Positions 4-18,845 are shown, numbered from the stretch's first letter. The stretch: DNA of 18,845 nt from an uncultured bacterium (GCA_965612865.1 CBFDTJ010000024.1:1-18845), one strand, 5' to 3'. Program-made: numbers and translations. The notes: a model not told the origin generated them from the letters alone.

Positions 4-69
4 CAAGCAGAAGACGGCATACGAGATCATGCCTAGTCTCGTGGGCTCGGAGATGTGTATAAGAGACAG
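4..69 (+). other. Illumina Nextera i7 adapter (sequencing artefact)
   Basis: CAAGCAGAAGACGGCATACGAGAT (P7, 4-27), 8-nt index CATGCCTA (28-35, which I recall as N706), GTCTCGTGGGCTCGG (36-50) and Tn5 mosaic end AGATGTGTATAAGAGACAG (51-69). Its reverse strand gives the spurious peptide CLLYTSPSPRD* at the end of ORF 33..884. Confidence 0.99.
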
Positions 70-884
70 TTTATGTATATGTCATTTGGAATCTTTATAT
101 TTACCCCATGAACCCCTAATTCTTTAAGTGTTCTTCCCACAGATAGAGCAGAGAGGAGTGGAAGAGCGTATATAGATTTAAAAGGTTTTTCCGTTAGTGA
201 AAACCATAAACCTCCTCTGTTAGAGACCCATAAACTCCCCTTCCTTCCTCTTCCTTCGGTCTGAATGGAGCTTACCACTAAAGTATTCTTAGAAAAGTTC
301 TTTTTCAAAAACTTCTGTGTTGAAGGAAGAATCTCAAATAAGAATAGATTGTAGGGAATGTTTATAAGGTTAAGATTAAACTCTGAGAAGACATCTCTTT
401 TAAAGGAAAAATCTTCAATTTTTTTAACATCTTTCGAGGATTTAACAGTAAATAACTCACATACCTTCTTTCCTCTTTCAGGATCAATAAATTCCCCCTC
501 TACTTCAAGAAGTGGTACTATAACAAAATTTCTATCTCTGTATTCTTTATGTGGAATTTTTAAATCCTCTTCCTTAAGAATAACATCTTCATAGAATATA
601 ATATCCACATCTATCTCTCTTGGTCCCCATCTGAATCTTTCTCTTCTCCCCATCTCTTTCTCCACCTTCTTTATAAAGAAAAGAAGGTTTCTTGGATTAA
701 GACCTGTTTCTCCAGAGACTACCACATTGAAAAATTTGTTCTGCTTCCTGTATCCCCATGGCTCTGTTTCGTAAAGAGATGAAACTTTTTCTATATGAAT
801 CTTCTCCCTTAGTTTTGAAATGGTTTTTATAATTGTTTTTCTTCTATCTCCAATATTGCTTCCAAGAGAGAGAACAACTTTCAT
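70..884 (-). CDS. folK: FolK (HPPK) fused in frame to a biotin--protein ligase (BirA/BPL) catalytic domain; 3' end missing because the contig runs into adapter
   Basis: The N-terminal ~145 aa have HPPK motifs SLGSNIGDR, SSLYETEPWG, RWGPREIDVDII, IPH and RNFVIVPL. The C-terminal part has BPL motifs ST(Q), QTEGRGRKGSLW, GLWFS and IKIPNDIYIN. No stop lies between them. ATGA overlap with the upstream gene. Confidence 0.88.
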
Positions 885-5090: not shown

Positions 5091-6422
5091 ATGAGAAGGT
5101 TTAAGTTAATTCTTTTTATTTCTTTGTTAGTTTTAGCCACATCATTTTTAAGTATTGGAGTATCCAACAACTCCATAAAACCAGCCTATGGACTCTCAGG
5201 ATGGAGTGGTTATTACTTTGTAGAGATTGATAATAGTAAACCAGGTTCAACAGCACTTACAGATTACCAGATCAAAATAGTTATTGATTCATCTCATACA
5301 GATTTCTGGGATAAAGTTCAACCTTATGCAAAGGATGTAAGATTCACAGAAGAAGATGGAGAAACGCTTCTTCCTTACTGGATAGAGAAGTGGGATTATG
5401 CAAACAGAAAAGCAACTATATGGGTTAAAGTTCCAAATATTCCTGTGGGAATTAAATACATATATATGTGGTATGGAAATTCATCTGCCACAGGAAATGG
5501 TTGGCATACAAACCCAGACAATCCAACATCAGGATGGTGGGCTGGAGATGGAGATAACACCTTCATCTTCTTTGATGACTTTGAGGGAGTAAACATTAAC
5601 ACAGAGAAATGGAAAGAGAAAAGCTGGAGCTGGGCAGAGGTTGGTGTGGGAAATGGTAAACTTCGTGTCTTAATACTGCGGCGTCACTTCTCTTTTGCTG
5701 GTATTGAATCTAAGCAAGCAATTGATGAAATAGATATCGTTTGGGAAACACGATATGAAATACCAAGTGCAAATTATGAGGATGCAAGAATTAGACTTCG
5801 TTTAGAGGATGTAAATTTACATGGTGATTATGGTATCTTTGGTTCTAATTCTTGTGAATATTTTTGGAAAGTAAATACAGGGGTTAAGCCTACTCTTGAC
5901 AAATGGATGAAGTCTATTCAAACACTTTATTCAAATGGTAGCAAATTTAAATGGGAAACATTTAAAGAGGATGGAACTCCAGAACTCACATCAGATATAG
6001 CAAATTCTTCAGTAACATCTGGATCAGACAAGAAAATCTATTTAAGATGTGGAGATGCTACACCGTATAACGACTATGATGGCAAGATGTATGTTGACTA
6101 TGTATTTGTCCGTAAATATGCGAGCAAAGAACCAAAAATTTCTATATTAACATCCTTAATTCAAGGTACAGACAGAAGAGAAGGATACTTTGAGTTCTTT
6201 GTGAATAGAGAGAATGAAACATGGCTACTCAGAATACCAGATAAAGGATACACCACAGGATGGATGCCTTTTAACAGACTCAGAGATGCAGGAAGTTTTA
6301 TGTCTGGTTATTATGCAGATAGGAGATACCATCTTCTCTTTGATTGGTATCCATCAGGGAGATGCCACCTTATATTCAATGATAGGAGGCAAGGAATAAG
6401 TATTAAGTATGGAGGAAGATGA
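5091..6422 (+). CDS. Secreted DUF2341-like protein with shared 88-aa C-terminal domain (paralogue A)
   Basis: Signal peptide MRRFKLILFISLLVLATSFLSIG...AYG. DUF2341-type pattern DVRFTEEDGETLLPYWIEKWD...ATIWVKVP...IYMWYGN, then FIFFDDFEG...VDYVFVRKY. The C-terminal domain is shared with B and C. Confidence 0.85.
   Translation: MRRFKLILFISLLVLATSFLSIGVSNNSIKPAYGLSGWSGYYFVEIDNSKPGSTALTDYQIKIVIDSSHTDFWDKVQPYAKDVRFTEEDGETLLPYWIEKWDYANRKATIWVKVPNIPVGIKYIYMWYGNSSATGNGWHTNPDNPTSGWWAGDGDNTFIFFDDFEGVNINTEKWKEKSWSWAEVGVGNGKLRVLILRRHFSFAGIESKQAIDEIDIVWETRYEIPSANYEDARIRLRLEDVNLHGDYGIFGSNSCEYFWKVNTGVKPTLDKWMKSIQTLYSNGSKFKWETFKEDGTPELTSDIANSSVTSGSDKKIYLRCGDATPYNDYDGKMYVDYVFVRKYASKEPKISILTSLIQGTDRREGYFEFFVNRENETWLLRIPDKGYTTGWMPFNRLRDAGSFMSGYYADRRYHLLFDWYPSGRCHLIFNDRRQGISIKYGGR
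5355..5400. repeat. 46-bp exact block, inverted copy at 17480-17525; 25 bp of it also occurs directly at 6738-6762
   Basis: gatggagaaacgcttcttccttactggatagagaagtgggattatg is identical to the reverse complement of 17480-17525. Confidence 0.95.
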
Positions 6423-6463
6423 GCTGAGAGAATTCTATATTGCTAAGAAAAAGGAAGGGAGAA

Positions 6464-9400
6464 ATGAAGAGAATTGTTTGTTCTTTAATCTTTATTTCTC
6501 TAATCTTTTCAATGCTTGTATTTTCTCCAAAGCATGTAAAGTCTTCTGATCCCTGGTATGATTTAAATTATAAGCACAGAATAAAGGTTACTCTAAAGTT
6601 TAAGGGCAATTTTTATTGGACTGGAAATAATCCAATAAAAATTGAATTGACAGGGTACAATGTCCCTTCTTTTTGGCAATTTGTTCAATCGGATGCAAGA
6701 GATATAGTGGTTACAGATGAAGATGGCGATGAACTCTCTTACTGGATAGAGAAGTGGGATTACAGTGGCAAAGACGCAGTAATATGGATAAATTTTTACT
6801 ATCCTGGTATGTTAGGTATATGGTCAGATAGTAATATAGCTTACATATACTATGGAAACGATTCTGCAACAGGAAGTGGATGGCATACAGATCCAGATGG
6901 TGGAGGATGGTTTGCTGGAAATGGAGATGGAACTTTTGACTTCTTTGATGATTTCGAAGGTAGTGATATAGATACAGGAAAGTGGGACAAGGATTGTAGT
7001 GATGAGAGCAGCGGGGGGTTAACGCAGGAGGATGGGGTTGTAGAGTTAATTGTGTATCCTATATATCCACTAGGGACAACTGGTCATTCAGGTATGGATT
7101 CGAAATATTACGCTGGCCACGAACAGTTTTGCTGGGAGACAAGGTTTAAACTCATAAGAGATGACTATCTCTATGCCTATAGGAACATAATAAATGTGCT
7201 TGGAGATTTTGACATTGATGGAGATGGTGATATTGACGATAATGACGAATATGGCTATCGTGGCAAAAGCTCTCCTATCTTTGGTACCTTATGGTATTAC
7301 TGGGGAGATTACACAGATAAAGAGATAGAAAGAAATAAATGGTTTAAAGACATACAATTCTGTGATATGGTTAATAACCACAACACATTTAAATGGTCTG
7401 TATACAAAGATGTGAATGGTCCACTGGATTTTGAAAGAACAGCTTCTATAAAGAATGGAAATGTTGATGGAAAGATAAGGTTCTTTACTGGCAAGAGTGG
7501 TACTAACCTTACTCTTGCTGGACATTTAGTTGTTGACTATGTCTTTTCATATAAACCACCTTCTTATCCTCTCGACTTTATCATTTTTAGAGAGGAAAAC
7601 CTTGTAGACCTCTCTGTCTCAACATCTTCAAATCCAAGCAACCTTATATACAATGGAGGAAATGTTGAATTCAAAGCAACTGTCTCTAATAATTCTGAAG
7701 CTGATACATCAAATGTTACAGTGAAGTGTTATCTTCCTTCAAATTGTGAGGTTCAATCAATCAGTGTATCATCAGGTTCATATACCTATGATTCCAACAC
7801 TATAACATGGACTATACCTACTCTCTCATCAAACAGCAATGAAACTCTAACAGTGGAAGAGAAGGCAACATCTCCAGGTGATGCAACATTTAAAGCTACC
7901 ATAGAGAACTTTGATGATCATGATACAGATACCTCAAACAACTCCTCCTCCACAACTATACCTGTGTATCCAGCAGCAAATGTTTCAGCTTCAAAGGAAG
8001 CTCCAGAAGAAGTGATAGCTGGATCTACAATTACTTACACCATAAATGCTTACAACTCAGGACCAGATCCTGCGGAGAATGTTAGGATTATGGATGATCT
8101 GCCCCCAGAAACTTTTGGTCCCATATATGGAATCTACTCTGAAGATGGAGGGCAGACATGGGAATACATACCGGATGGATGGACTGGAAACTTCACATTC
8201 CCAGACCCTCTTCCACCAGGTGCTACCTTTAAAGTAAGGATAGTGAGGACAGTGGATCCAGCAGTAGAGGAAGGTAAATACATAACAAATTATGCAGAAG
8301 TTACATCTACCACAAAGAAATCTGATGGAACATCAAATTATTTTCAAACACCGACTGTTTACACTAAGGTGGTAACTCAGGCTCTCTTAGAGATAGAAAA
8401 GACTGATTCTCCAGATCCAGTAGTTGCTGGGGAGACCCTCACATATACCATAACAATAACAAACAATGGACCAAGTTATGCAAGGAATGTAACACTTACA
8501 GACAATATACCAGATGAGATAGAGAATCCTCAGTTTAGATACAGAATCTCCTCCAATGGAGGAAATACATGGGGTGATTGGAGCGATTGGAGTTCATGGA
8601 GTAGTCCATACAACTTAGGAACACTTCCCAATGGAGAGAAGTTTGAGGTGGAGATAAGGGGGACAGTGGATCCTTCTACTCCTGATAATTCAACCATAAC
8701 AAATACTGCTTCTGTGTCATCAGATGCAGAGGATCTAAATACTTACAACAACACTGATACTGAGAATACTACTGTAAAAACTAAAGCAGACCTCCTATCA
8801 ATAAAGATAGATGATACAGATCCAGTGGTTGCAGGTGAGGTTCTTACATACACAATAACTATAACAAACAATGGACCAAGTTATGCAAGGAATGTAACAC
8901 TTACAGACAATATACCAGATGAGATAGAGAATCCTGAGTTTAGATATAGAATCTCATCCAACGGAGGAACAACTTGGGGTGATTGGAGTGATTGGAGTTC
9001 ATGGAGTGGTTCCTACAACTTAGGAACACTTCCCAATGGAGAGAAGTTTGAAGTGGAGATAAGGGGGACTGTGGATCCTTCAACCTTAGAAGGAAGTGTT
9101 ATAACAAATACTGCTTCTGTGTCATCAGATACAGAGGATCCAGATGAGGGTAATAATACTGATACAGAGGATACGGGGGTAATAACAAGGGCAGATCTTT
9201 CAATAACAAAGACTCTAGCTAAGGATACCAATCTTGTTGAGACAGAGATAGAGTATACAATAGAGGTTAAGAATAATGGACCAAGTTATGCAAGGAATGT
9301 AAGGGTGATGGATGAGATACCAGAGGGATTACTGTTTGTTTCATACACATCAACAAAGGGAGTATACAATCCAAATACAGGAGTATGGAGTATAGGAGAT

Positions 9401-9823
9401 ATGAGTGATGATGAGGTGGAGACATTAAAGATAACATTAAAGGTTATGGATTACAATCCAATAATAAATGAGGCAGAGGTTGTATCAGATACCACTGATC
9501 CTGATACAACAAATAATACTGCAGTATCTGATAAGGTGGTGGATGTAGAGGATCCATTGATAAAGGGAACAGTACCAAGGGAAGGATACTTTGAATTCTT
9601 TGTTGATAGAGAGGGAAAGAAGTGGTTACTAAGGATACCTGATAGAGGATACACTACAGGATGGATACCATTTGTCAGGTTAAGGGATACAGAAAACTTT
9701 ATGACAGGATACTATTCTGATAGAAGGTATTACCTTAAATTTAACTGGTATTCATCTGGGAGATGTAGTCTTATCTTTAATGACAGAAGGGAGGGGATAG
9801 GTATTAAGTATGGGGGAAGGTAG
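6464..9823 (+). CDS. Large secreted surface protein: DUF2341-like domain, variable domain, five DUF11-type repeats and the shared C-terminal domain (paralogue B)
   Basis: ATG 6464 is preferred over TTG 6440 because it follows the purine-rich AAGGAAGGGAG and opens a signal peptide (MKRIVCSLIFISLIFSMLVFS). DUF2341-like LSYWIEKWD...YIYYGN. Repeats of the type DLSITK...G...TYTITITNNGPS.A.NV...D.IP...ITNTASV. Confidence 0.88.
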   Translation: MKRIVCSLIFISLIFSMLVFSPKHVKSSDPWYDLNYKHRIKVTLKFKGNFYWTGNNPIKIELTGYNVPSFWQFVQSDARDIVVTDEDGDELSYWIEKWDYSGKDAVIWINFYYPGMLGIWSDSNIAYIYYGNDSATGSGWHTDPDGGGWFAGNGDGTFDFFDDFEGSDIDTGKWDKDCSDESSGGLTQEDGVVELIVYPIYPLGTTGHSGMDSKYYAGHEQFCWETRFKLIRDDYLYAYRNIINVLGDFDIDGDGDIDDNDEYGYRGKSSPIFGTLWYYWGDYTDKEIERNKWFKDIQFCDMVNNHNTFKWSVYKDVNGPLDFERTASIKNGNVDGKIRFFTGKSGTNLTLAGHLVVDYVFSYKPPSYPLDFIIFREENLVDLSVSTSSNPSNLIYNGGNVEFKATVSNNSEADTSNVTVKCYLPSNCEVQSISVSSGSYTYDSNTITWTIPTLSSNSNETLTVEEKATSPGDATFKATIENFDDHDTDTSNNSSSTTIPVYPAANVSASKEAPEEVIAGSTITYTINAYNSGPDPAENVRIMDDLPPETFGPIYGIYSEDGGQTWEYIPDGWTGNFTFPDPLPPGATFKVRIVRTVDPAVEEGKYITNYAEVTSTTKKSDGTSNYFQTPTVYTKVVTQALLEIEKTDSPDPVVAGETLTYTITITNNGPSYARNVTLTDNIPDEIENPQFRYRISSNGGNTWGDWSDWSSWSSPYNLGTLPNGEKFEVEIRGTVDPSTPDNSTITNTASVSSDAEDLNTYNNTDTENTTVKTKADLLSIKIDDTDPVVAGEVLTYTITITNNGPSYARNVTLTDNIPDEIENPEFRYRISSNGGTTWGDWSDWSSWSGSYNLGTLPNGEKFEVEIRGTVDPSTLEGSVITNTASVSSDTEDPDEGNNTDTEDTGVITRADLSITKTLAKDTNLVETEIEYTIEVKNNGPSYARNVRVMDEIPEGLLFVSYTSTKGVYNPNTGVWSIGDMSDDEVETLKITLKVMDYNPIINEAEVVSDTTDPDTTNNTAVSDKVVDVEDPLIKGTVPREGYFEFFVDREGKKWLLRIPDRGYTTGWIPFVRLRDTENFMTGYYSDRRYYLKFNWYSSGRCSLIFNDRREGIGIKYGGR
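7976..9190 (+). repeat. Three tandem 405-bp (135-aa) DUF11-type units, flanked by shorter related units at ~7604-7969 and 9191-~9550
   Basis: Units start at 7976, 8381 and 8786, and the next at 9191, an exact 405-bp period. 8456-8725 and 8861-9130 are highly similar at DNA level. aatggaccaagttatgcaaggaatgtaa occurs three times. Confidence 0.93.
9622..9692. repeat. 71-bp block with inverted copy at 16520-16590 (2 mismatches, including a 39-bp exact run)
   Basis: gtggttactaaggatacctgatagaggatacactacagg... in the C-terminal domain of B matches the reverse complement of 16520-16590 in C. Confidence 0.93.
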
Positions 9824-9831
9824 GAAATAAA

Positions 9832-11187
9832 TTAAAATAAATTGTCTTTGAAGCCAAGGGATTCAAGAAGGAGTTTTTTTGCACCTGCGGGATAAAGGTT
9901 TGAGATAGTGCCCATTGCGGAAAAGATGTAGTATTTATCTATAAGAATCTTTGGATTCTCGGGAAGAAGGAGTCTTTCGTTTTCAGTATTTTTAAACAGC
10001 CTTTTTAAAAAGGTTTTCATTGATGGAATATGGGTAAAAACTCCCCCTGTGCCAACCACCCATTTAACATTCCTCAAATCCTTTCCAAAAATTGCCTTTA
10101 TCTTTCCTGTGGGAGTATAAAGATACCTTACCTCCCCCACATGTCTTAAGAGAGCGGTTTTTACACAAACCTCTGCAAGCTTCTTTGTCAAATTAACTTC
10201 ACTCCTCTTCTCTGGAATTGGAGAAAGATGTTTGAATTTCTTTTCTATCTCTTCTCTGTTTAAAGGGTCTATCTCATCAAGCACATTCTTTGCAGAAACA
10301 TAAACACCAAGATCTCCCTCCACAGTTCTTTTGGCTATAGGTTCTGGATATATAACCACAGAATCCTTATCTTTTTTACCCTTTGTAACAGAGTGAACGT
10401 CAGTTGTTGCTCCTCCAACATCAAACCCCATGATATCTCCTATTTCCTTGTAGAGAAGCATAAAGGAATTCATCACAGCCCCTGGAGTTGGTATTATATC
10501 CCCTTCAACCCAATTCCTTATTTCTTCCATTCCTGGAGCATGGATTATATGTTCTTCAAAAACTCCCTGAATTACCTTTCTTACAGGCTCAATATTTAAC
10601 TTGTCAATTTCAGGATAAACATTTTCAGTTATGTATATTTTAAAACCTTTACTCTTAAATATATCCTTAACTATATCTCTTACTGCACGATTCCCTGCAA
10701 ATACAACAGGGGGTTTAATGGAAATGGTGGATAATCTTTTTGCATTTTCAACAACAATTCTATCCTCTCCAAAATCAACGCCCCCTGATAGAAGGATTAT
10801 GTTTGGTTTTATCTCCTCAATTTTTTTTAAGTCATATGGAGTTATAAGTCCTGCAGTTATAAGTTTAACAATGGCTCCTGCACCAAGAGCTGCTTCTTTT
10901 GCTGCCTTTGCAGTCATCTCAAGCACAAGCCCATGAACTGTCATCTTAAGACCGCCTGCAGCAGAGGAATTTCCAAAGAGATGTGTCCATGTAAGTTTAT
11001 CTGCACCAAGTTTATTTTTTAGGTCGTCTATAGCTCTCTCAAGCCCTTTTGTGACATCCCCCTCATCAACTGTAGTTTTTGCTATGCCCTTTCCTAAATA
11101 TCTTGGATTTTTCTCCTTTAGAGAGGAGAAAGCAGATACCTTTGTAATAGTTGAGCCTATCTCAACAACCAGTGTATGAACTCTCAC
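9832..11187 (-). CDS. GlmL/MutL(glutamate mutase)-family protein; probable reactivase of a B12-dependent mutase, ornithine-degradation-related type
   Basis: LVVEIGSTITK, SSAAGGLKMTVHGLV, AAKEAALGAGA, GGVDFGE, ENVYP, HIIHAPGM, PTPGAV, DVGGATTDVHSV, KRTVEGDLG and VGTGG; ASKHA-type ATPase motifs. Confidence 0.85.
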   Translation of the reverse strand: MRVHTLVVEIGSTITKVSAFSSLKEKNPRYLGKGIAKTTVDEGDVTKGLERAIDDLKNKLGADKLTWTHLFGNSSAAGGLKMTVHGLVLEMTAKAAKEAALGAGAIVKLITAGLITPYDLKKIEEIKPNIILLSGGVDFGEDRIVVENAKRLSTISIKPPVVFAGNRAVRDIVKDIFKSKGFKIYITENVYPEIDKLNIEPVRKVIQGVFEEHIIHAPGMEEIRNWVEGDIIPTPGAVMNSFMLLYKEIGDIMGFDVGGATTDVHSVTKGKKDKDSVVIYPEPIAKRTVEGDLGVYVSAKNVLDEIDPLNREEIEKKFKHLSPIPEKRSEVNLTKKLAEVCVKTALLRHVGEVRYLYTPTGKIKAIFGKDLRNVKWVVGTGGVFTHIPSMKTFLKRLFKNTENERLLLPENPKILIDKYYIFSAMGTISNLYPAGAKKLLLESLGFKDNLF

Positions 11188-11195
11188 TAAAAGGA

Positions 11196-11204
11196 ATTAT
11201 AACA
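11196..11204 (-). promoter_or_regulatory. Extended -10 promoter (TGnTATAAT) immediately upstream of the GlmL-like gene
   Basis: The minus strand reads TG-T-TATAAT-tcctttta-GTG within a 23-bp intergenic gap, with no Shine-Dalgarno. Confidence 0.65.
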
Positions 11205-11210
11205 CAAGAG

Positions 11211-11990
11211 TTAAACTTCGCCTGGTGCAAACCTGCAGTTACAATGCCTTTCCTCTGGGATTAGTTTAACTACCTCAATTATTATCTTCTTCAGTATCTC
11301 ACTCTTTTCGTCCATGAGTCTCTTCACTTCTTCATGGGTTATCATTTCATCTGTTATTCCTGCAGCAAAGTTGGTTACTATCCCGATAGAGGCATAACAC
11401 AAGCCCAGTTCTCTAGCAAGGGTAACTTCAGGAACACCAGTCATACCAACAATATCACCACCAAGAATCTGAAGCATCTTTATTTCTGCTCTTGATTCAT
11501 ATCTTGGTCCATTCATGGCAACATATGTTCCTTTAAAGTGGAACCTTACCCCTTCTTTCTCTATAACATTCTTTATAACCTCTCTCATCTCCGAACAGTA
11601 TGGATCTGTCATATCTGTATGAACAACCTTCCCCACGGAATCAAAGAATGTAAAGTCTCTATCGTGTGTAAAATCAAGAAATTGATCTATTATCACAAAA
11701 TCACCTGGCTTCATATCCTTGTTGAGAGAACCTGAGGCAGATGTCGCAAGTATTCTTTCAACACCAACTTCCTTCATAGCCCAGATGTTTGCTCTGTAGG
11801 GAATAAGGTGAGGTGGAATTGTATGGGTTTTTCCGTGCCTTGGCACAAAAATAACTTCCCTATCACCAATCTCTCCGATACTAACCTCAACACTTCCAAA
11901 TGGGGTTATTATCTCTTTTTTCTCCTTATCTTTCACACCGGGTAAATCATAAAATCCACTCCCTCCAATTACACCAAATTTCTTTCCCAT
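11211..11990 (-). CDS. mtnP: MTAP/PNP-family nucleoside phosphorylase, probably of the methylthioinosine/6-oxopurine type
   Basis: GVIGGSGFY, TPFG, PRHGKTHTIPPH..YRANIWA, DQFLDFT, GPRYESRAE, VGMTGVPE..LARE, VTNFAAG and a C-terminal CNC; GGAGGAG Shine-Dalgarno. Confidence 0.88.
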   Translation of the reverse strand: MGKKFGVIGGSGFYDLPGVKDKEKKEIITPFGSVEVSIGEIGDREVIFVPRHGKTHTIPPHLIPYRANIWAMKEVGVERILATSASGSLNKDMKPGDFVIIDQFLDFTHDRDFTFFDSVGKVVHTDMTDPYCSEMREVIKNVIEKEGVRFHFKGTYVAMNGPRYESRAEIKMLQILGGDIVGMTGVPEVTLARELGLCYASIGIVTNFAAGITDEMITHEEVKRLMDEKSEILKKIIIEVVKLIPEERHCNCRFAPGEV

Positions 11991-12637
11991 AACTCCTCCT
12001 TTACTCTCTTTGAAATTTTATCAGCAATTCTTATTGGCTCTGGAATTCTATACTTTATACAGAGAGATAACACTATATCTTTAGATTTTTCTATGTCTAT
12101 CATATTCCCGGGAGAAACGAAAAGAGGTCTTACTTTATCCTTTGTTCTTAGCACCACTCCAATTTTCTCTCTCTTATTAAATAAATATGTGAAGCTCCCC
12201 TTCTTCTCTTCAGGTTCAACAAATTTCCCGAAGAGATGGCTTTTTGCAACGCCAATTGTCGGTTTTTCAATAAGAATTCCTATATATGTGGCAAGACCAA
12301 GTTCTCTTGGATGTGCTATTCCCTGCCCATCCACAAGAACCACATCAATCTCTTTTAAATCAAAATGTTTTTTTATCGTCTTTACCGCATAGGGACCCTC
12401 TCTAAATGAAAGAAAAGTTGGAATGTATGGAAATGTAACCTTTTCTTTTTCTACAACAACATCCTTAACTTTTTTTTCTAAAGCATCATACTTTACTACA
12501 ACTGTGTATTGTAAATCTCTTTTATATGAAACATCCACACCAAGAACAGTGTTTACCCTGCCTATATTTCCAGAGAGAACTATTCTTTTCCTTAAATTCT
12601 TTTGAATTTTAATAAACTTTTTTAGAGTTTTATTCAT
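11969..12637 (-). CDS. nfi: Endonuclease V
   Basis: GVDVSY, FPYIPTFLSFRE, VDGQGIAHPR..GLA, PTIGVAKS, PLFVSPG and YRIPEPIRIAD. Start placed at ATG 12637 (MNKTL), which overlaps the upstream stop, rather than at 12679. Confidence 0.95.
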   Translation of the reverse strand: MNKTLKKFIKIQKNLRKRIVLSGNIGRVNTVLGVDVSYKRDLQYTVVVKYDALEKKVKDVVVEKEKVTFPYIPTFLSFREGPYAVKTIKKHFDLKEIDVVLVDGQGIAHPRELGLATYIGILIEKPTIGVAKSHLFGKFVEPEEKKGSFTYLFNKREKIGVVLRTKDKVRPLFVSPGNMIDIEKSKDIVLSLCIKYRIPEPIRIADKISKRVKEELWERNLV

Positions 12638-13436
12638 TATCGTAATAAAACCAGATTGAATAATGGGTCTTTCTTCCAAGTCTATCCACAGCGTAAAAAT
12701 CTATATACTCTTTTCTTATTTTAAGAGTGGCATTGTCAATGACAAAAAAACCAAAAAAATTAAAATCCTTCTTTACCTGTTTAAAGGATATGTTTGAAAA
12801 GTATGTGGTGGAACCGGTATATTTAAGGGTCAATCTTAAAGGATAATCTTTTATAAACAATACAGAATCGTTTATAAGTTTTATGACATAAGGAAGATAC
12901 TGCTCTTCTTCAGAAGGAAACGGCTTACCATTGTATCTAAACTCGTTATTTTTAAATTCAATAGAAACTTCACTCTTAAGCTCATCACTTTCTACAATTA
13001 TTTTCCCTTCGTCAAGAAAAAACTTGGCAGTAAAATTTATGCTCCCTGCAGGAAATGAACCATAGACAACAGTCTTAAATTTCCTTTTTTCTGGTAAATC
13101 CCTGCTTATGGATTCCACAATTTTTGACATTCCTTCTTTGAAACTTAGAAGCTTAAAAGTAACCTCTCTTTGTATCTTAAGATCTATTTTTCTCTTTACA
13201 CTAAAGAATCCAGGTTTTTCTACTTTAACAATGTACTCTTTGGGTTGAAGTTTGAAAGTTACCCATCCATCTTTACCTGTTTCTCCTTCCTCATATGACA
13301 GAATACTTACCCATGCTCCCTGAACAGGATTTCCTTTTGTATCAAGAACGATAACCTTTAAAGTTCTACTAACACTACATGAAATAGACGAGAAGAGTAT
13401 TATAAAGAGGATTGATATTAAAATAAACTTTCTCAC
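12630..13436 (-). CDS. Putative lipoprotein with N-terminal carboxypeptidase-regulatory/PEGA-like beta-sandwich
   Basis: MRK, hydrophobic stretch, SISC lipobox-like; V.D.KGNPVQGA.V...TGKDG.V.F.L....Y.V.VEKPGF pattern; GTGA overlap with rsfS. Confidence 0.7.
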   Translation of the reverse strand: MRKFILISILFIILFSSISCSVSRTLKVIVLDTKGNPVQGAWVSILSYEEGETGKDGWVTFKLQPKEYIVKVEKPGFFSVKRKIDLKIQREVTFKLLSFKEGMSKIVESISRDLPEKRKFKTVVYGSFPAGSINFTAKFFLDEGKIIVESDELKSEVSIEFKNNEFRYNGKPFPSEEEQYLPYVIKLINDSVLFIKDYPLRLTLKYTGSTTYFSNISFKQVKKDFNFFGFFVIDNATLKIRKEYIDFYAVDRLGRKTHYSIWFYYDNE

Positions 13437-13792
13437 TTCTTCCCAAACTCCACTCTTTTAGCCTCTATCCAGAGATCCTCAAGGTTGTAGTATTCCCTCT
13501 TCTCTGGAAGAAATATATGAACAAGAAAATCGCCATAATCCATAACAATCCATGAACCTTTCTCATACCCCTCAACAGAGAGAGGGAGTGTCTTTTCATT
13601 CTTTTTTAATTTTATGTAAATTTCGTCGCTTATTGCCCTTGCCTGAATGTCAGTTTCAGCAGAGCAAATAAATACATAATCAAAAAGGGGAGTTATTTTT
13701 CTTACATCAAGACATACAATATCCTCCCCTTTCTTGTCGACAATTGCATTAAAAGTTTTTTCTAAAATTGGATCAATTTTCTCTCCTCCCAC
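13433..13792 (-). CDS. rsfS: Ribosome silencing factor
   Basis: DKKGEDIVCLDV, DYVFICS, VEG, WIVMDYGDFLVHIF and REYYNLEDLW; AAGGAGG before the GTG. Confidence 0.97.
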   Translation of the reverse strand: MGGEKIDPILEKTFNAIVDKKGEDIVCLDVRKITPLFDYVFICSAETDIQARAISDEIYIKLKKNEKTLPLSVEGYEKGSWIVMDYGDFLVHIFLPEKREYYNLEDLWIEAKRVEFGKK

Positions 13793-14415
13793 GGATCATC
13801 CTCCTTGTATAAATTGTGTTTTTTGATATACTCCTCCACCTCTTCAGGAACAAGGTATTTTATTGGAAGACCCTCCTTGATCCTATTCCTTATCTCTGTG
13901 GAGGAGATGGAAAGAGCAGGAACCCTCATGATTATGACTCTCTCATCACACTTATTACAAATTTTCTTTAACTTTTCCTTGAGTCTTTTAAGATTGTATC
14001 CAGGTCTTGTTGCAGCAATAAAACAGCACATGGTTAGAAGCTCTCTTGGTTTCTTCCATGTGAGGATGCTTAAAACAGAATCGGCGCCGGTAATAAAATA
14101 GATGTTGTAGCTCTCCTCTGGATAAATTTTTCTAAATTCCTTTATGGTGTCATAGGTATAGGACTTCTTAAAATGGTCTATTTCGATCCTTGAAACAAAA
14201 AAATGTGGATTTGAAGCTGTGGCAAGAAGCGTCATGGCAAATCTTCTCTCTGGATCTATAAGGTGTGTGGGTTTTTTGTAGCCTGGAACACCAACAGGTA
14301 CAAAGATCACTCTCTCCAGCGAAAATCTCACCCTTGCCTCCTCAGCAACAACAAGGTGGCCTATGTGTATGGGATTGAAAGAACCTCCAATTATTCCTAT
14401 TGATTTCTTACTCAT
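13762..14415 (-). CDS. nadD: Nicotinate-nucleotide adenylyltransferase
   Basis: GGSFNPIHIGH, SYTYDT, FITGADS, ISSTEIRNR and YLVP..V..YI...LY. Confidence 0.97.
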   Translation of the reverse strand: MSKKSIGIIGGSFNPIHIGHLVVAEEARVRFSLERVIFVPVGVPGYKKPTHLIDPERRFAMTLLATASNPHFFVSRIEIDHFKKSYTYDTIKEFRKIYPEESYNIYFITGADSVLSILTWKKPRELLTMCCFIAATRPGYNLKRLKEKLKKICNKCDERVIIMRVPALSISSTEIRNRIKEGLPIKYLVPEEVEEYIKKHNLYKEDDPWEERKLIQF

Positions 14416-15703
14416 GATATCTAAACCTTATACCTTCTATTATAACAAGATCTCCTTCTTTCACTCCAAGTTTTCTCAGTTCCTCCTCCACACCAAACCT
14501 TTTAAATATCTTTTGCACTCTCTCTACACCAAATGGAGATGAAAGATCTACGCCTTTAATAAGTCTTCCAAGCTCCTCTCCATAAACATAAAATGTCTCT
14601 CCAATCTTTTTAACTTCAATCTTTCTTTTATCTTTGTCCACTCTTAAAACATACCTTCTCTTTGGTCTTACAACCTTTTCCTTCTCTGGTAATTTTATCT
14701 TTCCTATTTCTTTTTTGAGTTCACTGATTCCTTCGCCTCTGATAGCAGACATTTTAACAACTGGAAATCCCTGTTTATAAAAGTAATTTTCTGCCTCTTC
14801 AAGATTTTTCACAGGGAGGTCGATTTTATTTAAAACAATTACCTTTTGCTTCTCAAGAATTTCAGGATTAAACTCCTTAATCTCATTTACAAGATTCTTA
14901 TACTGAGTTAATGCATCCATGGGTGAGGTTTCCGAAACATCGAGAACAAATATCAAAAAATAAGTCCTCTGAATATGCCTTAAAAATGTGAGCCCGAGCC
15001 CCTTTCCCTCATGTGCTCCATCTATAAGCCCGGGAAGATCAACAATTCTTAATGACTTCTTATCGTCAATTCTTACCTCACCAATAACAGGAGTAAGAGT
15101 TGTGAAGGGATACGATGCTATCTTGGGTTTTGCATTGCTTATCTTGGATAGAATTGTGGATTTCCCAACATTGGGATATCCAACAAGTCCCCCTTCAGCT
15201 ATAATTCTTAATTCAAGTATAAGCCTTCTCTCTTCCCCCTCCTCTCCCAGAGTTCTTATACGGGGAGCTCTGTTTTCAGGAGTAGCAAAGGAAGCATTCC
15301 CTTTTCCACCCTCGCCTCCTCTTGCAATAACAAGTTCCTCTCCCGGTTCCACAAGTTCTCCAAGAAGCTCACCTGTCTCTTTATCCCAGACAAGAACTCC
15401 TGGTGGAACATCAACAATCAGATCCTCTCCGTCTTTACCGGTTTTATTGCTTCCCTCACCATGTCTTCCATTCTCTGCTTTAAATATGTTCTTAAATCTA
15501 AAATTCGTGAGTGTATCAAGTTGTGGATTAACTTTTAGTATGACATCTCCCCCTTTGCCACCATCACCACCTGAAGGACCCCCGTATGGAACATACTTTT
15601 CTCTTCTGAAGGCTATTATACCGTCCCCCCCTTTTCCACCCTTGACAAAAATTTCTGCTAAATCAAAGGAATACTTTTTATTGAATTTCTTTTGGAATGA
15701 CAC
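14408..15703 (-). CDS. obgE: GTPase Obg/CgtA with C-terminal OCT (DUF1967-like) domain
   Basis: [52 protein letters not shown] and C-terminal [17 protein letters not shown]. The exact start is uncertain. Confidence 0.97.
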
Positions 15704-15941
15704 TTACCCTCTTTCTTCCCTTTCCAAAGGTCTCGAACTTTACAACTCCATAGATCTTTGAAAAGATTGTATAATCGTTACCAAGGCCAGTGTTTTTTCC
15801 TGGTTTTATTCTTGAACCACGCTGTCTTACAATTATTGACCCTGGTTTAACAATTTGACCATCAAAGGCCTTCACACCAAGATATTTTGGGTTGGAATCT
15901 CTTCCGTTTTTTGACTTTCCACCACTCTTTTTATGAGCCAT
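15678..15941 (-). CDS. rpmA: 50S ribosomal protein L27
   Basis: [20 protein letters not shown] and GSIIVRQRG. Confidence 0.99.
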
Positions 15942-15943
15942 AA

Positions 15944-16261
15944 CTAACCTCCTAATTCAATCTTCTCAATCTTTACAACAGTTTTTCTCTGTCTATGACC
16001 CAGCATTCTCTTATGGGTTGTCTTTGCATGATATGTAAATACTTTAATCTTTCTCTCCTTCATCTGTTTTAAAACCTTACCAAGAACCTTTGCTCCCTCA
16101 ACATAGGGAGTGCCAACAACTTCTTCGTTCTCTTTCTTTAAAAGAAGGACTTTATCAAAGACAACCTCACTTCCCTCATCATATGGAAGTTTCTCCACCT
16201 TTAATGTATCGCCTTCTTTAACAAGATACTGCTTTCCACCTGCCTCTATAATTGCAAACAC
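15944..16261 (-). CDS. rplU: 50S ribosomal protein L21
   Basis: [21 protein letters not shown] and GHRQ. Start placed at GTG 16261, which follows AAGGAGGT, rather than ATG 16276. Confidence 0.97.
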
Positions 16262-16298
16262 CTTAACCTCCTTCATGTCTATAGTTCAACATCTTATT

Positions 16299-16326
16299 AT
16301 TCTACAATAAGTTTACCATAAATCAA
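16299..16326 (-). promoter_or_regulatory. Putative sigma70 promoter of the rplU operon
   Basis: TTGATT (16326-16321), 16-bp spacer, TAGAAT (16304-16299). Confidence 0.5.
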
Positions 16327-16388
16327 GAGGATATCTGAATTTCCAACCCATAATGAATTTATGTGTTTCTGAGTTTATTTAACTTACC

Positions 16389-17780
16389 TCACCTCCCCCC
16401 AAACTTAATATTTACCCCCTCTCTCCTATCATTAAAGAGAAGACTACATCTCCCAGATGAATACCAGTCAAAGGTAAGGTGGTATCTCCTATCTGCATAG
16501 TATCCAGACATGAAGTTTCCTGTATCCCTTAACCTGTCAAATGGTATCCAACCTGTAGTGTATCCTCTATCAGGTATCCTTAGTAACCACCTCCTTCCCT
16601 CTCTATCTACAAAGAACTCAAAGTATCCTGTTCTTGTTGCTGTTCCCTTTATTAATGGAATCATCTCAACACTTATCTCTGGTTCTACATCGGCATATTT
16701 CCTTACAAAGGTATAATCAACTTCAGTTTTCCCTTTATAATAGAATGCCAGTCCCCCACCATTCTCCCCCACCACAATAACAAGCTTTCTATTCGATCCA
16801 AGGGAAGTTGATGTAGAAGTATCCACCTCAGTTTGACCATCTTCTTCTCTAACAACTTTTATTTCAAATTTTGTTCCATTAGAGAATAAAGTTTGTGTCA
16901 TTTTGAGCCATTTATCTATAGAATCTGAATAAAAAGGTCCGTTGGGATATTGATACTTAATATGTGATATTGGATTCTCAGTTTTATCTTTTTCCATTAT
17001 AAAGTAATCTCCAACTCCAATATTTTCTATTTTGTGTCTGATTCTGTTTATTCCATTAGGGTAAGAAGAGATTTCTCCAGTATACTTAGGGAAAGGATGT
17101 ACCTTGGTTTCAATTTCCCAGATAAATTCGTTATACTCATCAAAGTTTCTTTTTGATTTTATATAAGCATAACCTCTATCATTTAAGTAACTACTGGAAG
17201 ATAAAGAGATTCTACCATTTGAAACATCTATCCTTCCTATACCTCCTATAAATCCAATTCCCTTATCCCACTTACCTGTATTAACACTTCCTCCCTCAAA
17301 ATCATCAAAGAAGATGAAGGTACTATCTCCATCTCCTGCCCACCATCCTGATGTCGGATTGTCTGGATCTGTATGCCATCCAATTCCTGAGATAGAAGGA
17401 TTTCCATAGTACATATATATGTATTTAATTCCCACAGGAATGTCCGGTACTTTAACCCATATTGTTGCCTTCCTATTCTCATAATCCCACTTCTCTATCC
17501 AGTAAGGAAGAAGCGTTTCTCCATCATCTTCTGTGAATCTTACAACTCTTGCATCAGGTTGAACATTATTCCAGAAATCTGTGAGAGTTGGATCCATTTC
17601 AACCTTTATCTGGTAATCTGTGAGTGCTGTTGAATCTACCTTATTATTATCAATCTTTACAAAGTAATAACCACTCCATCCTGAAAGCCCATATGCTGAT
17701 TTTATAGACTTGTTATATACTCCAAGACCTAAAGATATAGATAGAAACACCATAAGAAGAATTAAAATAATCCTTCTCAT
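16389..17780 (-). CDS. Secreted DUF2341-like protein with shared 88-aa C-terminal domain (paralogue C)
   Basis: Signal peptide MRRIILILLMVFLSISLGLG...AYG. The N-terminal block is 110/135 aa identical to A by hand count, and the C-terminal domain is shared with A and B. Confidence 0.85.
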   Translation of the reverse strand: MRRIILILLMVFLSISLGLGVYNKSIKSAYGLSGWSGYYFVKIDNNKVDSTALTDYQIKVEMDPTLTDFWNNVQPDARVVRFTEDDGETLLPYWIEKWDYENRKATIWVKVPDIPVGIKYIYMYYGNPSISGIGWHTDPDNPTSGWWAGDGDSTFIFFDDFEGGSVNTGKWDKGIGFIGGIGRIDVSNGRISLSSSSYLNDRGYAYIKSKRNFDEYNEFIWEIETKVHPFPKYTGEISSYPNGINRIRHKIENIGVGDYFIMEKDKTENPISHIKYQYPNGPFYSDSIDKWLKMTQTLFSNGTKFEIKVVREEDGQTEVDTSTSTSLGSNRKLVIVVGENGGGLAFYYKGKTEVDYTFVRKYADVEPEISVEMIPLIKGTATRTGYFEFFVDREGRRWLLRIPDRGYTTGWIPFDRLRDTGNFMSGYYADRRYHLTFDWYSSGRCSLLFNDRREGVNIKFGGR

Positions 17781-17968: not shown

Positions 17969-18845
17969 TCAGGAAATTGAGTTTTTAAATTTCATGGGAA
18001 GGAGCACCCGGGGAATAAAAGTAAAAGAGGGGTAAAGATATACTCTTCCAGATGGTGCCATTCTACCTGTGAGTTCATCTCTTACAGGAGATATATGAAT
18101 GGTTATTGTGTGATTCTCTGTCGTTCCAGCCCACCTTTCGTTAAAAAGGTCATAAACTGGAACACCTTCTTTAATATAGGGTGAATTCAAAGATAAACTC
18201 ACCTCATTCTGCCACTCCCAAACAGCAACAAAACCGTTGGTGTAGTATCTTATATAACCTCCATCTATATTTTCATATCCATCCCCAAGAGGCTTACCGA
18301 GATCATAAAAATAAATTTTGTTCTCTTCCAGGGAGTTATCAAAAGGAACTTCAGTGTAGGATATAAAGTTATAAAGTTTTGATAAAGCATATCCAAAAAA
18401 TATTGCATTCTTTGGTATTTTGGGTTTATAAACAGTTATTTCATCCCTCTTTTCCAGGGGAATGAATTCCGGTGCTGCATAGTTCATACAGATAAAATTT
18501 TTAAAGGGTTCTTCAAATTTAGCCCTTAAAGAGTTAAGAAAATCAAGGTAGTAAAGCGTATCTTTAAGAGAACCAGTCATAATACTCTCACTCACAGGAT
18601 AGTATATGGTCTGTGGAACCTCAACAAAGCCCATTCCTTCAACATAAAGGACTTTTCCGAAATAGCCATAATCTGTTCCATAGCTCTCTGTCATATCATA
18701 ATCAACCCATCTAAGTACATTGTTTTTATTTCTAAACCCTTGATTGGTAACAATGATCATATCATCGGTTCTTTCTCTTAAAGTTTGGTAGAATTCGCCC
18801 ACTGAATCAGGATATGTTTTATCCGGGTGTCTTATGTTAAAAGTC
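17969..18845 (-). CDS. Partial CDS (5' end outside the window); possible GH114/PelA-like endo-alpha-1,4-polygalactosaminidase-type glycoside hydrolase
   Basis: The frame is open from the window edge (TFNIRHPDKTYPDSVGEF...), so GTG 18802 is probably internal. LRER..DMIIVTNQGF....VDYDMTESY resembles TIM-barrel strands of that family. The product call is tentative. Confidence 0.5.
   Translation of the reverse strand, partial: TFNIRHPDKTYPDSVGEFYQTLRERTDDMIIVTNQGFRNKNNVLRWVDYDMTESYGTDYGYFGKVLYVEGMGFVEVPQTIYYPVSESIMTGSLKDTLYYLDFLNSLRAKFEEPFKNFICMNYAAPEFIPLEKRDEITVYKPKIPKNAIFFGYALSKLYNFISYTEVPFDNSLEENKIYFYDLGKPLGDGYENIDGGYIRYYTNGFVAVWEWQNEVSLSLNSPYIKEGVPVYDLFNERWAGTTENHTITIHISPVRDELTGRMAPSGRVYLYPSFTFIPRVLLPMKFKNSIS

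What the first reader, a model, noticed from the sequence alone, without database searches (positions are those of the whole stretch)
5091..17780. Three secreted proteins share an unassigned, highly conserved 88-aa C-terminal domain ending K-[YF]-G-G-R: candidate new sorting/anchoring module
Seen: the last 88 aa of A (6156-6419), B (9557-9820) and C (16392-16655) align without gaps. By hand count B/C is 72/88, A/C 67/88 and A/B 66/88, with 62 positions invariant (GYFEFFV, WLLRIPD.GYTTGW.PF.RLRD, GYY.DRRY, F.WY.SGRC, FNDRR.G..IK[YF]GGR). It stays at the extreme C-terminus whether it follows the core directly (A, C) or five extra repeats (B). All three have N-terminal signal peptides. It has no transmembrane helix, LPXTG, PEP-CTERM or SLH pattern that I can recognise; it is aromatic- and Arg-rich with one invariant Cys. 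Inference: it acts like a portable tail on variable cargo, analogous in role to a T9SS CTD or a cell-envelope/S-layer binding domain, and may mark an undescribed export or surface-attachment pathway.
Basis: partly seen in the sequence, partly recalled or inferred. Interest (0 to 1): 0.85.

Follow-up and report, generated by a model that had tools for sequence, protein, structure and literature searches.

The report
Swappable barrel tail on exported proteins
Many unrelated proteins with export-type signal sequences in one group of little-studied bacteria (Caldisericia) end in the same uncatalogued, positively charged 85-residue domain, predicted to be a small beta-barrel, which sits where relatives carry other tail domains and likely holds the proteins on the cell surface rather than marking a new secretion pathway.

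Summary
Observation confirmed: the three 88-aa tails align without gaps (66, 67, 72 of 88; 62 invariant). The genome, a Caldiserica MAG, has six copies on five genes, one gene with a tandem pair. Elsewhere the tail ends DUF2341, DUF11, beta-helix, several propeller, PHP-like and S8 peptidase proteins; it lies within 6 aa of the C-terminus in 56 of 57 proteins. No Pfam, NCBIfam, PHROG or PDB sequence match. Two AlphaFold models (pLDDT 90, 95) give an all-beta fold resembling small 8-stranded barrels (best Z 7.2 and 8.2, not family-level). It is basic on acidic cargo and under purifying selection. Orthologous cargo in other genomes ends in CuAO_N or other domains instead. The Cys and K-[YF]-GGR are not conserved. 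Omp85 and sortase were not found, and the tail occurs in only 5 of 93 phylum genomes, so a dedicated export pathway is unlikely. Best reading: a new, lineage-restricted, non-covalent surface-retention domain; ligand untested. The scan had not noted this sequence before.

The parts
5091..6422 (+). Gene A, 443 aa: signal-like N-terminus, DUF2341 core, one tail
   Evidence: PF10102 at aa 81-176, E 5.6e-25
6156..6419 (+). Tail domain of A (88 aa)
6464..9823 (+). Gene B, 1119 aa from the ATG at 6464 (1127 aa from the TTG at 6440): signal-like N-terminus, DUF2341 core, five DUF11 repeats, one tail
   Evidence: PF10102; PF01345 five stretches; TIGR01451
7607..9526 (+). DUF11 repeat stalk of B (approximate bounds); about 81% identical in DNA to the repeats of the tail gene on contig C74
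9557..9820 (+). Tail domain of B (88 aa); 87% DNA identity to the tail of C over 269 nt
16389..17780 (-). Gene C, 463 aa: signal-like N-terminus, DUF2341 core, one tail
   Evidence: PF10102 at aa 80-172, E 4.4e-24
16392..16655 (-). Tail domain of C (88 aa); AlphaFold model pLDDT 89.9, all-beta

Best explanation
The tail is an uncatalogued, basic, aromatic domain of about 85 residues that ends many unrelated proteins with signal-like N-termini, is predicted to fold as a small 8-stranded beta-barrel, and likely holds these proteins non-covalently on the cell envelope after ordinary Sec export. Shown: the sequence family, its terminal position, the unrelated cargo, the charge contrast, purifying selection, recent DNA exchange, and replacement by other terminal domains on orthologous cargo. 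Predicted: the barrel fold. Inferred: Sec export across a single membrane; binding of conserved Arg/Lys and aromatic residues to an acidic wall polymer or the surface layer; the long DUF11 or InlB-type repeats acting as stalks that lift the cargo outward; recombination moving the tail onto new cargo so that surface proteins vary between strains.
For: Position: within 6 aa of the C-terminus in 56 of 57 proteins; 39 of 57 pass a simple signal-peptide heuristic, and the other 18 start inside cargo or inside the hydrophobic stretch, as fragments or mis-called starts would. Cargo: DUF2341, LamG, DUF11, beta-helix, RCC1, PQQ-type and BNR propellers, PHP-like/CARDB/OB-fold, S8 peptidase; one supported clade of 31 tails (96/95) carries 8 cargo classes, and a DUF2341/LamG protein and a PQQ propeller have identical tails. 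Slot equivalence: of 17 genomes with the S8 cargo, 2 end in this tail, 4 in CuAO_N, 6 in an unassigned domain, 1 in a Kre9-like pair, 1 in nothing, 3 ends not seen; the PHP-like cargo ends in this tail in G003 and G006, CuAO_N in G013 and G039, other domains in G028 and G088. CuAO_N is reported on wall hydrolases, a surfaceome and an S-layer-like protein (passages of PMC4137172, PMC3582634, 10.64898/2026.09.23.753664). Charge: tail pI 9.1-10.2 against cargo pI 4.1-5.1 in 17 of 17 genes; selection: A/B pS 0.79, pN 0.14. Six basic columns are 86-100% Lys/Arg. Envelope: Omp85 0 of 5 genomes (7 of 14 controls ring), sortase 0 of 5 (3 of 14 controls), SLH 5 of 5 and pyruvyl-transferase 5 of 5. A tandem pair in the C74 gene and two database proteins fits avidity.
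Against: No binding, localisation or expression data. The wall-binding role of CuAO_N is itself an annotation-level inference in the passages I read, and the two other replacement domains have no known function, so slot equivalence shows a shared place, not a shared ligand. Some orthologues have no terminal module at all (S8 in G014, PHP-like in G050). Many CuAO_N tails in this genome are acidic, so a basic charge is not needed in that slot. The fold matches are lipocalin-like, adhesin and outer-membrane barrels, none a known wall-binding domain. The domain is missing from both same-genus genomes (96% and 91% complete). Whether Caldisericia lack an outer membrane is disputed in print (PMC7203096 passages treat them as having one), and a few small contigs of this MAG carry outer-membrane-receptor-like genes that composition could not clearly assign.
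Confidence: 0.55

Rival explanations
1. The tail docks onto one protein receptor, dockerin-style, most plausibly the giant (2,200-2,400 aa) CuAO_N-tailed S-layer-like protein whose gene it often flanks.
For: Tail genes directly flank the giant gene in G000 (C5), G006, G008 and metagenome locus L056. Within the family, the giant's central region was found in G000, G006, G008 (all tail-positive) and not in G001, G002, G004, G005 (all tail-negative). Tails are near-identical within a lineage and about 50% identical between lineages, as co-evolving partners would be.
Against: G007 has the C-terminal part of the giant gene but no tail match and no tail gene downstream; G003 has four tail matches but no match to two regions of the giant; 26 of 26 genomes of three other families match the giant, most with many matches, and only 1 of them has a tail. 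Most tail genes lie at other sites. Surface genes cluster anyway.
Confidence: 0.2
2. The tail is an outward-facing ligand, adhesion or self-association domain: it oligomerises the cargo or sticks it to matrix, minerals or partner cells rather than to its own wall.
For: Structural neighbours include the Pab87 C-terminal barrel (Z 6.6, rmsd 2.9, 74 aligned), described as crucial for octamer formation (PMC2651629 passages), and surface adhesins or ligand-binding barrels (Tp0751 Z 7.2; NHBA Z 6.7). A tandem pair exists.
Against: All Z values are in the range the tool calls a common arrangement, with 1-20% identity. The variable, adhesin-like parts are the N-terminal cargo; the tail is the constant part at the end of a repeat stalk, the usual place of an anchor.
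Confidence: 0.15
3. The tail is the recognition signal of a dedicated export or processing pathway (first reader's T9SS-like idea, or a T11SS-like barrel signal for crossing an outer layer).
For: Strictly terminal position on signal-peptide proteins. C-terminal 8-stranded barrels direct cargo to T11SS/Slam (10.1101/2024.09.26.615229 passages), and such barrels are among the fold matches (NHBA, TbpB, HpuA, HphA; Z 5.0-6.7).
Against: Omp85 not found in 5 of 5 genomes; no conserved terminal motif or Cys; only 1-6 matches per genome and 5 of 93 genomes; the same cargo is made with other tails or none in relatives; no conserved transporter or protease gene next to tail genes in the loci read.
Confidence: 0.07
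4. The tail has no special role and looks conserved only because of recent duplication and gene conversion.
For: Recent exchange is real: B/C pS 0.28 with cores only 35-39% identical; pS 0.0-0.13 between several tails on unrelated cargo in the sister genus.
Against: A/B, A/C5 and B/C74 have near-saturated synonymous sites (pS 0.75-0.79) with pN 0.14-0.26; very divergent S8-linked copies keep the pattern; both models fold with high confidence.
Confidence: 0.03

Closest known systems
Copper amine oxidase N-terminal ('stalk') domain, PF07833, used as a C-terminal tail
   Same: Occupies the same terminal slot on the same S8 and PHP-like cargo in other Caldisericota; is also shared letter for letter between different cargo in one genome (G013: L071 and L115 ends); 28 matches in this genome.
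   Different: No sequence match; about 85 aa rather than 108; far rarer and confined mostly to one family.
Non-covalent wall-binding modules of monoderms (SLH, WxL, GW/SH3-8, CWB2, SLAP; PMC5817068 passages)
   Same: Small terminal domain on exported proteins with varied cargo, no membrane helix, no sortase motif.
   Different: No match to any of their Pfam models; predicted small beta-barrel; binding untested.
T11SS/Slam cargo C-terminal 8-stranded barrels (TbpB, NHBA, HpuA, hemophilin)
   Same: C-terminal 8-stranded barrel behind a variable N-terminal part; fold matches at Z 5.0-6.7.
   Different: 1-10% identity; smaller; Omp85 not found in the host; cargo N-termini do not look like lipoproteins by eye.
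Pab87 C-terminal lipocalin-like barrel (PDB 2qmi) and PDB 5hal, 8t0b
   Same: Small antiparallel barrels; Z 5.6-8.2, rmsd 2.9-3.5.
   Different: No sequence-level link; Pab87's barrel is tied to one peptidase, this tail to many cargo types.
T9SS C-terminal domain (PF18962/TIGR04183, accessions recalled)
   Same: About 80-90 aa, extreme C-terminus, signal-peptide proteins with unrelated cargo.
   Different: No Pfam or NCBIfam match; top fold matches are barrels; Omp85 not found; few copies per genome.

Membership tests
T9SS CTD | Match to T9SS CTD profile models | tested here: not met
   No Pfam hit better than E 0.12 for 21 tails; no NCBIfam hit better than E 0.11 for 34 tails
T9SS CTD | Ig-like beta-sandwich fold (recalled) | tested here: inconclusive
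   Listed matches are barrels, but an unlisted family is not excluded by that tool
T9SS CTD | Outer membrane with beta-barrel assembly machinery | tested here: not met
   PF01103 not found in 5 of 5 genomes (85-100% complete); 7 of 14 controls ring
T11SS/Slam cargo | [quoted passage not shown] | tested here: met
   Eight strands in the second model, pLDDT 94.9; barrel matches over 75-89 of 90 residues, Z up to 8.2; predicted only
T11SS/Slam cargo | Cognate Slam (DUF560) outer-membrane protein | tested here: inconclusive
   PF04575 0 of 5 genomes, but 0 of 14 controls rang
T11SS/Slam cargo | Outer membrane (Omp85/BamA) | tested here: not met
LPXTG / sortase substrates | Motif, membrane helix and basic end; sortase gene | tested here: not met
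   Highest 17-residue hydropathy 1.54 in 57 tails; PF04203 0 of 5 genomes, 3 of 14 controls ring
PEP-CTERM / GlyGly-CTERM | Short motif followed by a transmembrane helix and basic cluster (recalled) | tested here: not met
   No hydrophobic helix; the GG lies in the last four residues and is not conserved
CuAO_N (PF07833) tail | Profile match | tested here: not met
   the same scan finds true CuAO_N tails at E about 1e-33 to 1e-40
CuAO_N (PF07833) tail | Terminal slot on exported envelope proteins | tested here: met
SLH / WxL / GW / CWB2 / SLAP / dockerin | Profile match | tested here: not met
   SLH and dockerin are found on other proteins of this genome
Non-covalent cell-wall-binding domains (as a kind) | Binds a wall polymer or surface layer | not testable with these tools
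   Needs a binding assay
Pab87-type oligomerising barrel | Self-association | not tested
   The complex-prediction queue was full; no job ran

The most novel reading that the evidence does not exclude
The barrel tail is a plug for one proteinaceous socket, the giant S-layer-like protein encoded beside it, forming an undescribed lineage-specific display system in which swappable enzymes and adhesins snap onto or pass through the outer layer of a single-membrane bacterium using a T11SS-like barrel tag.
Probability: 0.15. Interest if true: 0.75.

Novelty: new member of a known kind. Interest (0 to 1): 0.45.

Why it matters
Caldisericota envelopes are barely studied and their one- or two-membrane status is argued in print. 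A defined, small, well-folding tail that is exchangeable with CuAO_N gives a direct handle for asking what holds proteins on these cells, and by comparison what the widespread but untested CuAO_N tail does. It would add a beta-barrel to the list of surface-retention folds. Its narrow range limits the general impact.

Tried and rejected
Family and sequence libraries: Pfam, NCBIfam, PHROGs and PDB sequences gave nothing significant; ESM Atlas gave only scores of 0.83 or less for one tail and no usable hit for another. Foldseek against PDB and viral models: no match at E <= 0.001. No T9SS CTD or wall-binding domain was among the listed VIA-align rows, which does not exclude them. Cys modification and a K-[YF]-GGR signal: rejected as not conserved. 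Missing-strand (donor-strand) docking, a lead from earlier notes: the second model has eight confident strands and matches whole barrels, so I see no obvious gap, but I had no coordinates to check closure. A tail-like end on the PHP-like protein of G015: HHalign probability 36% over 29 columns, no reciprocal hits, left unassigned and not counted. Four weak matches at E 0.011-0.017 (short, two with stops) were not counted. Slam search uninformative because no control rang. Homodimer prediction: the queue was full and no job ran. Source names for ten database proteins could not be looked up (database switched off), so the taxa of most metagenomic members, including P0010 labelled Ca. Calescamantes, stay unchecked. 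No RNA holder was listed. The scan of 185,579 species genomes used one narrow peptide pattern and returned 2 loci, so it would miss divergent copies. Literature searches showed no description of this domain, but a nameless domain is hard to search for; no supplements were opened.

Full report
Observation. The three stretches translate to 88 aa and align without gaps with 66, 67 and 72 identities and 62 invariant positions. A, B and C all carry DUF2341; B has five DUF11 repeats before the tail. A 99%-identical copy of C is named 'Caldiserica bacterium' by its source. The genome has six copies on five genes: A, B, C, a 1221-aa DUF2341/DUF11 protein on contig C74 with two copies in tandem, and a 529-aa beta-helix protein on C5; the next best profile hit has E 0.27. 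So unrelated cargo already exists in this genome.

The family. phmmer over 1.84 billion representatives gave 24 hits; profile searches gave 45 and 47 proteins, 57 distinct proteins in all. The domain ends within 6 aa of the C-terminus in 56 of 57; 39 of 57 pass a hydropathy-plus-basic-residue heuristic for a signal peptide; the other 18 begin inside cargo or inside the hydrophobic stretch, and for one (P0016) the fetched locus shows a signal-like start upstream. Cargo includes DUF2341, LamG, DUF11, beta-helix, RCC1, PQQ-type and BNR propellers, a PHP-like/CARDB/OB-fold protein ('PHP-like' is my reading of its motifs, not a Pfam call) and S8 peptidases. In a tree of 54 of the 57 tails (three fragments without cargo left out; 80 columns; bootstrap not settled), one supported clade of 31 carries eight cargo classes, with identical tails on a DUF2341/LamG protein and a PQQ propeller; but S8 and DUF2341 tails also form their own clades, so some copies have stayed with one cargo for long. 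The Cys column is Tyr 25, Cys 7, Phe 3 of 35 and sits in a hydrophobic alternation; the last residues are the final beta-strand; K-[YF]-GGR ends 1 of 57.

Range. The profile finds 5 of 93 phylum genomes: G000, G003, G006, G008 in the own family (4 of 9) and G069, whose tail is 93% identical to G003's and may be transferred or mis-binned. Both same-genus genomes lack it, and in G001 the neighbour glmL lies directly next to an uppP-like gene (my label), a clean absence at that site. Tail genes sit at variable sites: a related metagenome contig has a different tail gene beside glmL (L037); four loci between a glycerol-kinase-like and a pyruvate-oxidoreductase-like gene (my labels) carry different cargo with the same tail; one contig in run X4 joins position 6420 to 9825, a form without B. 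Many copies lie at contig ends, so absence in fragmented genomes is weak evidence.

Selection and exchange. Over 61 core codons A/B has pS 0.79 and pN 0.14, A/C 0.66 and 0.11: purifying selection. B/C has pS 0.28 and 87% DNA identity limited to the tail, and sister-genus tails on unrelated cargo have pS 0.0-0.22: recent exchange. The tail is basic (pI 9.1-10.2) and the cargo acidic (4.1-5.1) in 17 of 17 genes examined.

Structure. No library match. AlphaFold2 gave pLDDT 89.9 for C's tail (first ten residues uncertain) and 94.9 with eight strands for a sister-genus tail. Foldseek found nothing at E <= 0.001. VIA-align listed small 8-stranded barrels: Tp0751 Z 7.2 (rmsd 3.8, 80 aligned), 8t0b Z 8.2 (3.4, 86), 5hal Z 7.6 (3.4, 86), Pab87 Z 6.6 (2.9, 74), NHBA Z 6.7 (3.5, 84), OmpW Z 7.4 (3.0, 87). 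These are tied and at the level the tool calls a common arrangement: they give the fold class, not the family or function.

What it replaces. Of 17 genomes matching the S8 cargo, 2 end in this tail (a divergent form that finds the G000 tails reciprocally at E 2.5e-5), 4 in CuAO_N, 6 in an unassigned domain, 1 in a Kre9-like pair, 1 in nothing, and 3 ends were outside the fetched loci. Of the nine genomes with strong matches to the PHP-like cargo, G003 and G006 end in the tail, G008 has a broken gene with a broken tail, G013 and G039 end in CuAO_N, G028 in a Kre9-like pair, G088 in an unassigned domain, G050 in no terminal module and G015 in a weakly tail-like end. The tail therefore belongs to a set of exchangeable terminal modules. 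This genome also uses CuAO_N (28 matches), SLH (8) and dockerin (3 over the cut-off) on other proteins, and no tail protein carries CuAO_N or SLH.

Envelope context. Omp85 and sortase were not found in five genomes each while controls rang; SLH and a pyruvyl-transferase were found in five of five. A preprint lists Caldiserica among lineages that kept SLH/CsaB after outer-membrane loss (10.1101/2021.05.31.446380, passages); PMC7203096 (passages) treats the class as having an outer membrane, possibly without LPS. A few small contigs of this MAG encode outer-membrane-receptor-like proteins by eye; composition did not clearly mark them as foreign.

Mechanism. Most likely (0.55) the proteins leave by Sec, fold outside, and the basic aromatic barrel holds them on an acidic wall polymer or the surface layer, with repeat stalks lifting the cargo; recombination moves the tail between genes. 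Export route, ligand and stalk role are inferred. Docking on the giant S-layer-like protein (0.2; 'S-layer-like' is my label) is suggested by flanking in four loci and by co-occurrence in 7 of 9 family genomes, but G003, G007 and three other families break the pattern. Oligomerisation or outward adhesion (0.15) rests on weak fold matches. A dedicated export signal (0.07) has the T11SS barrel analogy but no machinery was found.

Known and new. It works like the non-covalent terminal surface modules of monoderms (PMC5817068, passages) and fills the slot of CuAO_N, whose presence on wall hydrolases and surface proteins I read in passages of PMC4137172, PMC3582634, PMC3413522 and 10.64898/2026.09.23.753664. 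It is a member of none of these families. Keyword searches showed no description; I read passages only and no supplements. Earlier notes of this scan hold no look-alike sequence but several analogous tails in other lineages. Verdict: a real, uncatalogued, lineage-restricted domain of a familiar kind; interest 0.45.

Noticed in passing
G000 C25:7585-3920, C2:32681-30987, C33:2986-227, C48:6612-4354, C3:10387-13479: Five exported proteins end in a dockerin-like paired EF-hand, some after a cohesin-like stretch; three pass the Dockerin_1 cut-off.
   Followed up: partly
G000 C5:33773-26670 (L192:671-7774): Giant 2,367-aa CuAO_N-tailed protein of a family that is single-copy in some genomes of this family, multi-copy in three other families and not found in the remaining three; no named family covers most of it.
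   Followed up: partly
L074, L108-L112, L121 C-termini: An unassigned C-terminal domain with paired G-W-N-type motifs ends S8 and PHP-like cargo in other Caldisericota; no Pfam hit for the three tested.
   Followed up: no
L072 and L118 C-termini: Tandem near-identical Kre9-like domains end the same cargo in G028 and G017.
   Followed up: no
L070:1267-1560 (G015): A weakly tail-like C-terminus on the PHP-like protein, followed by a paralogue ending in CuAO_N.
   Followed up: partly
window 33-884: FolK-like protein fused to a biotin-ligase-like start (read by eye); the frame ends in sequencing-adapter read-through at the contig end, as do several other contigs.
   Followed up: no
G000 C59, C64, C91: Small contigs with TonB-receptor-like, barrel-like and FlgD/T9SS-like ends by eye in a genome without Omp85; possible contamination, composition not decisive.
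   Followed up: partly
G000 C11:6318-7066: The pyruvyl-transferase (CsaB-like) match is in two open frames in this genome and in one in four relatives.
   Followed up: no
G008 C3:231619-232704: The PHP-like tail gene next to the giant gene is broken by several stops and frameshifts.
   Followed up: partly
window 17969-18802: 277-aa ORF with no Pfam or NCBIfam match, cut by the contig end, upstream of gene C.
   Followed up: no
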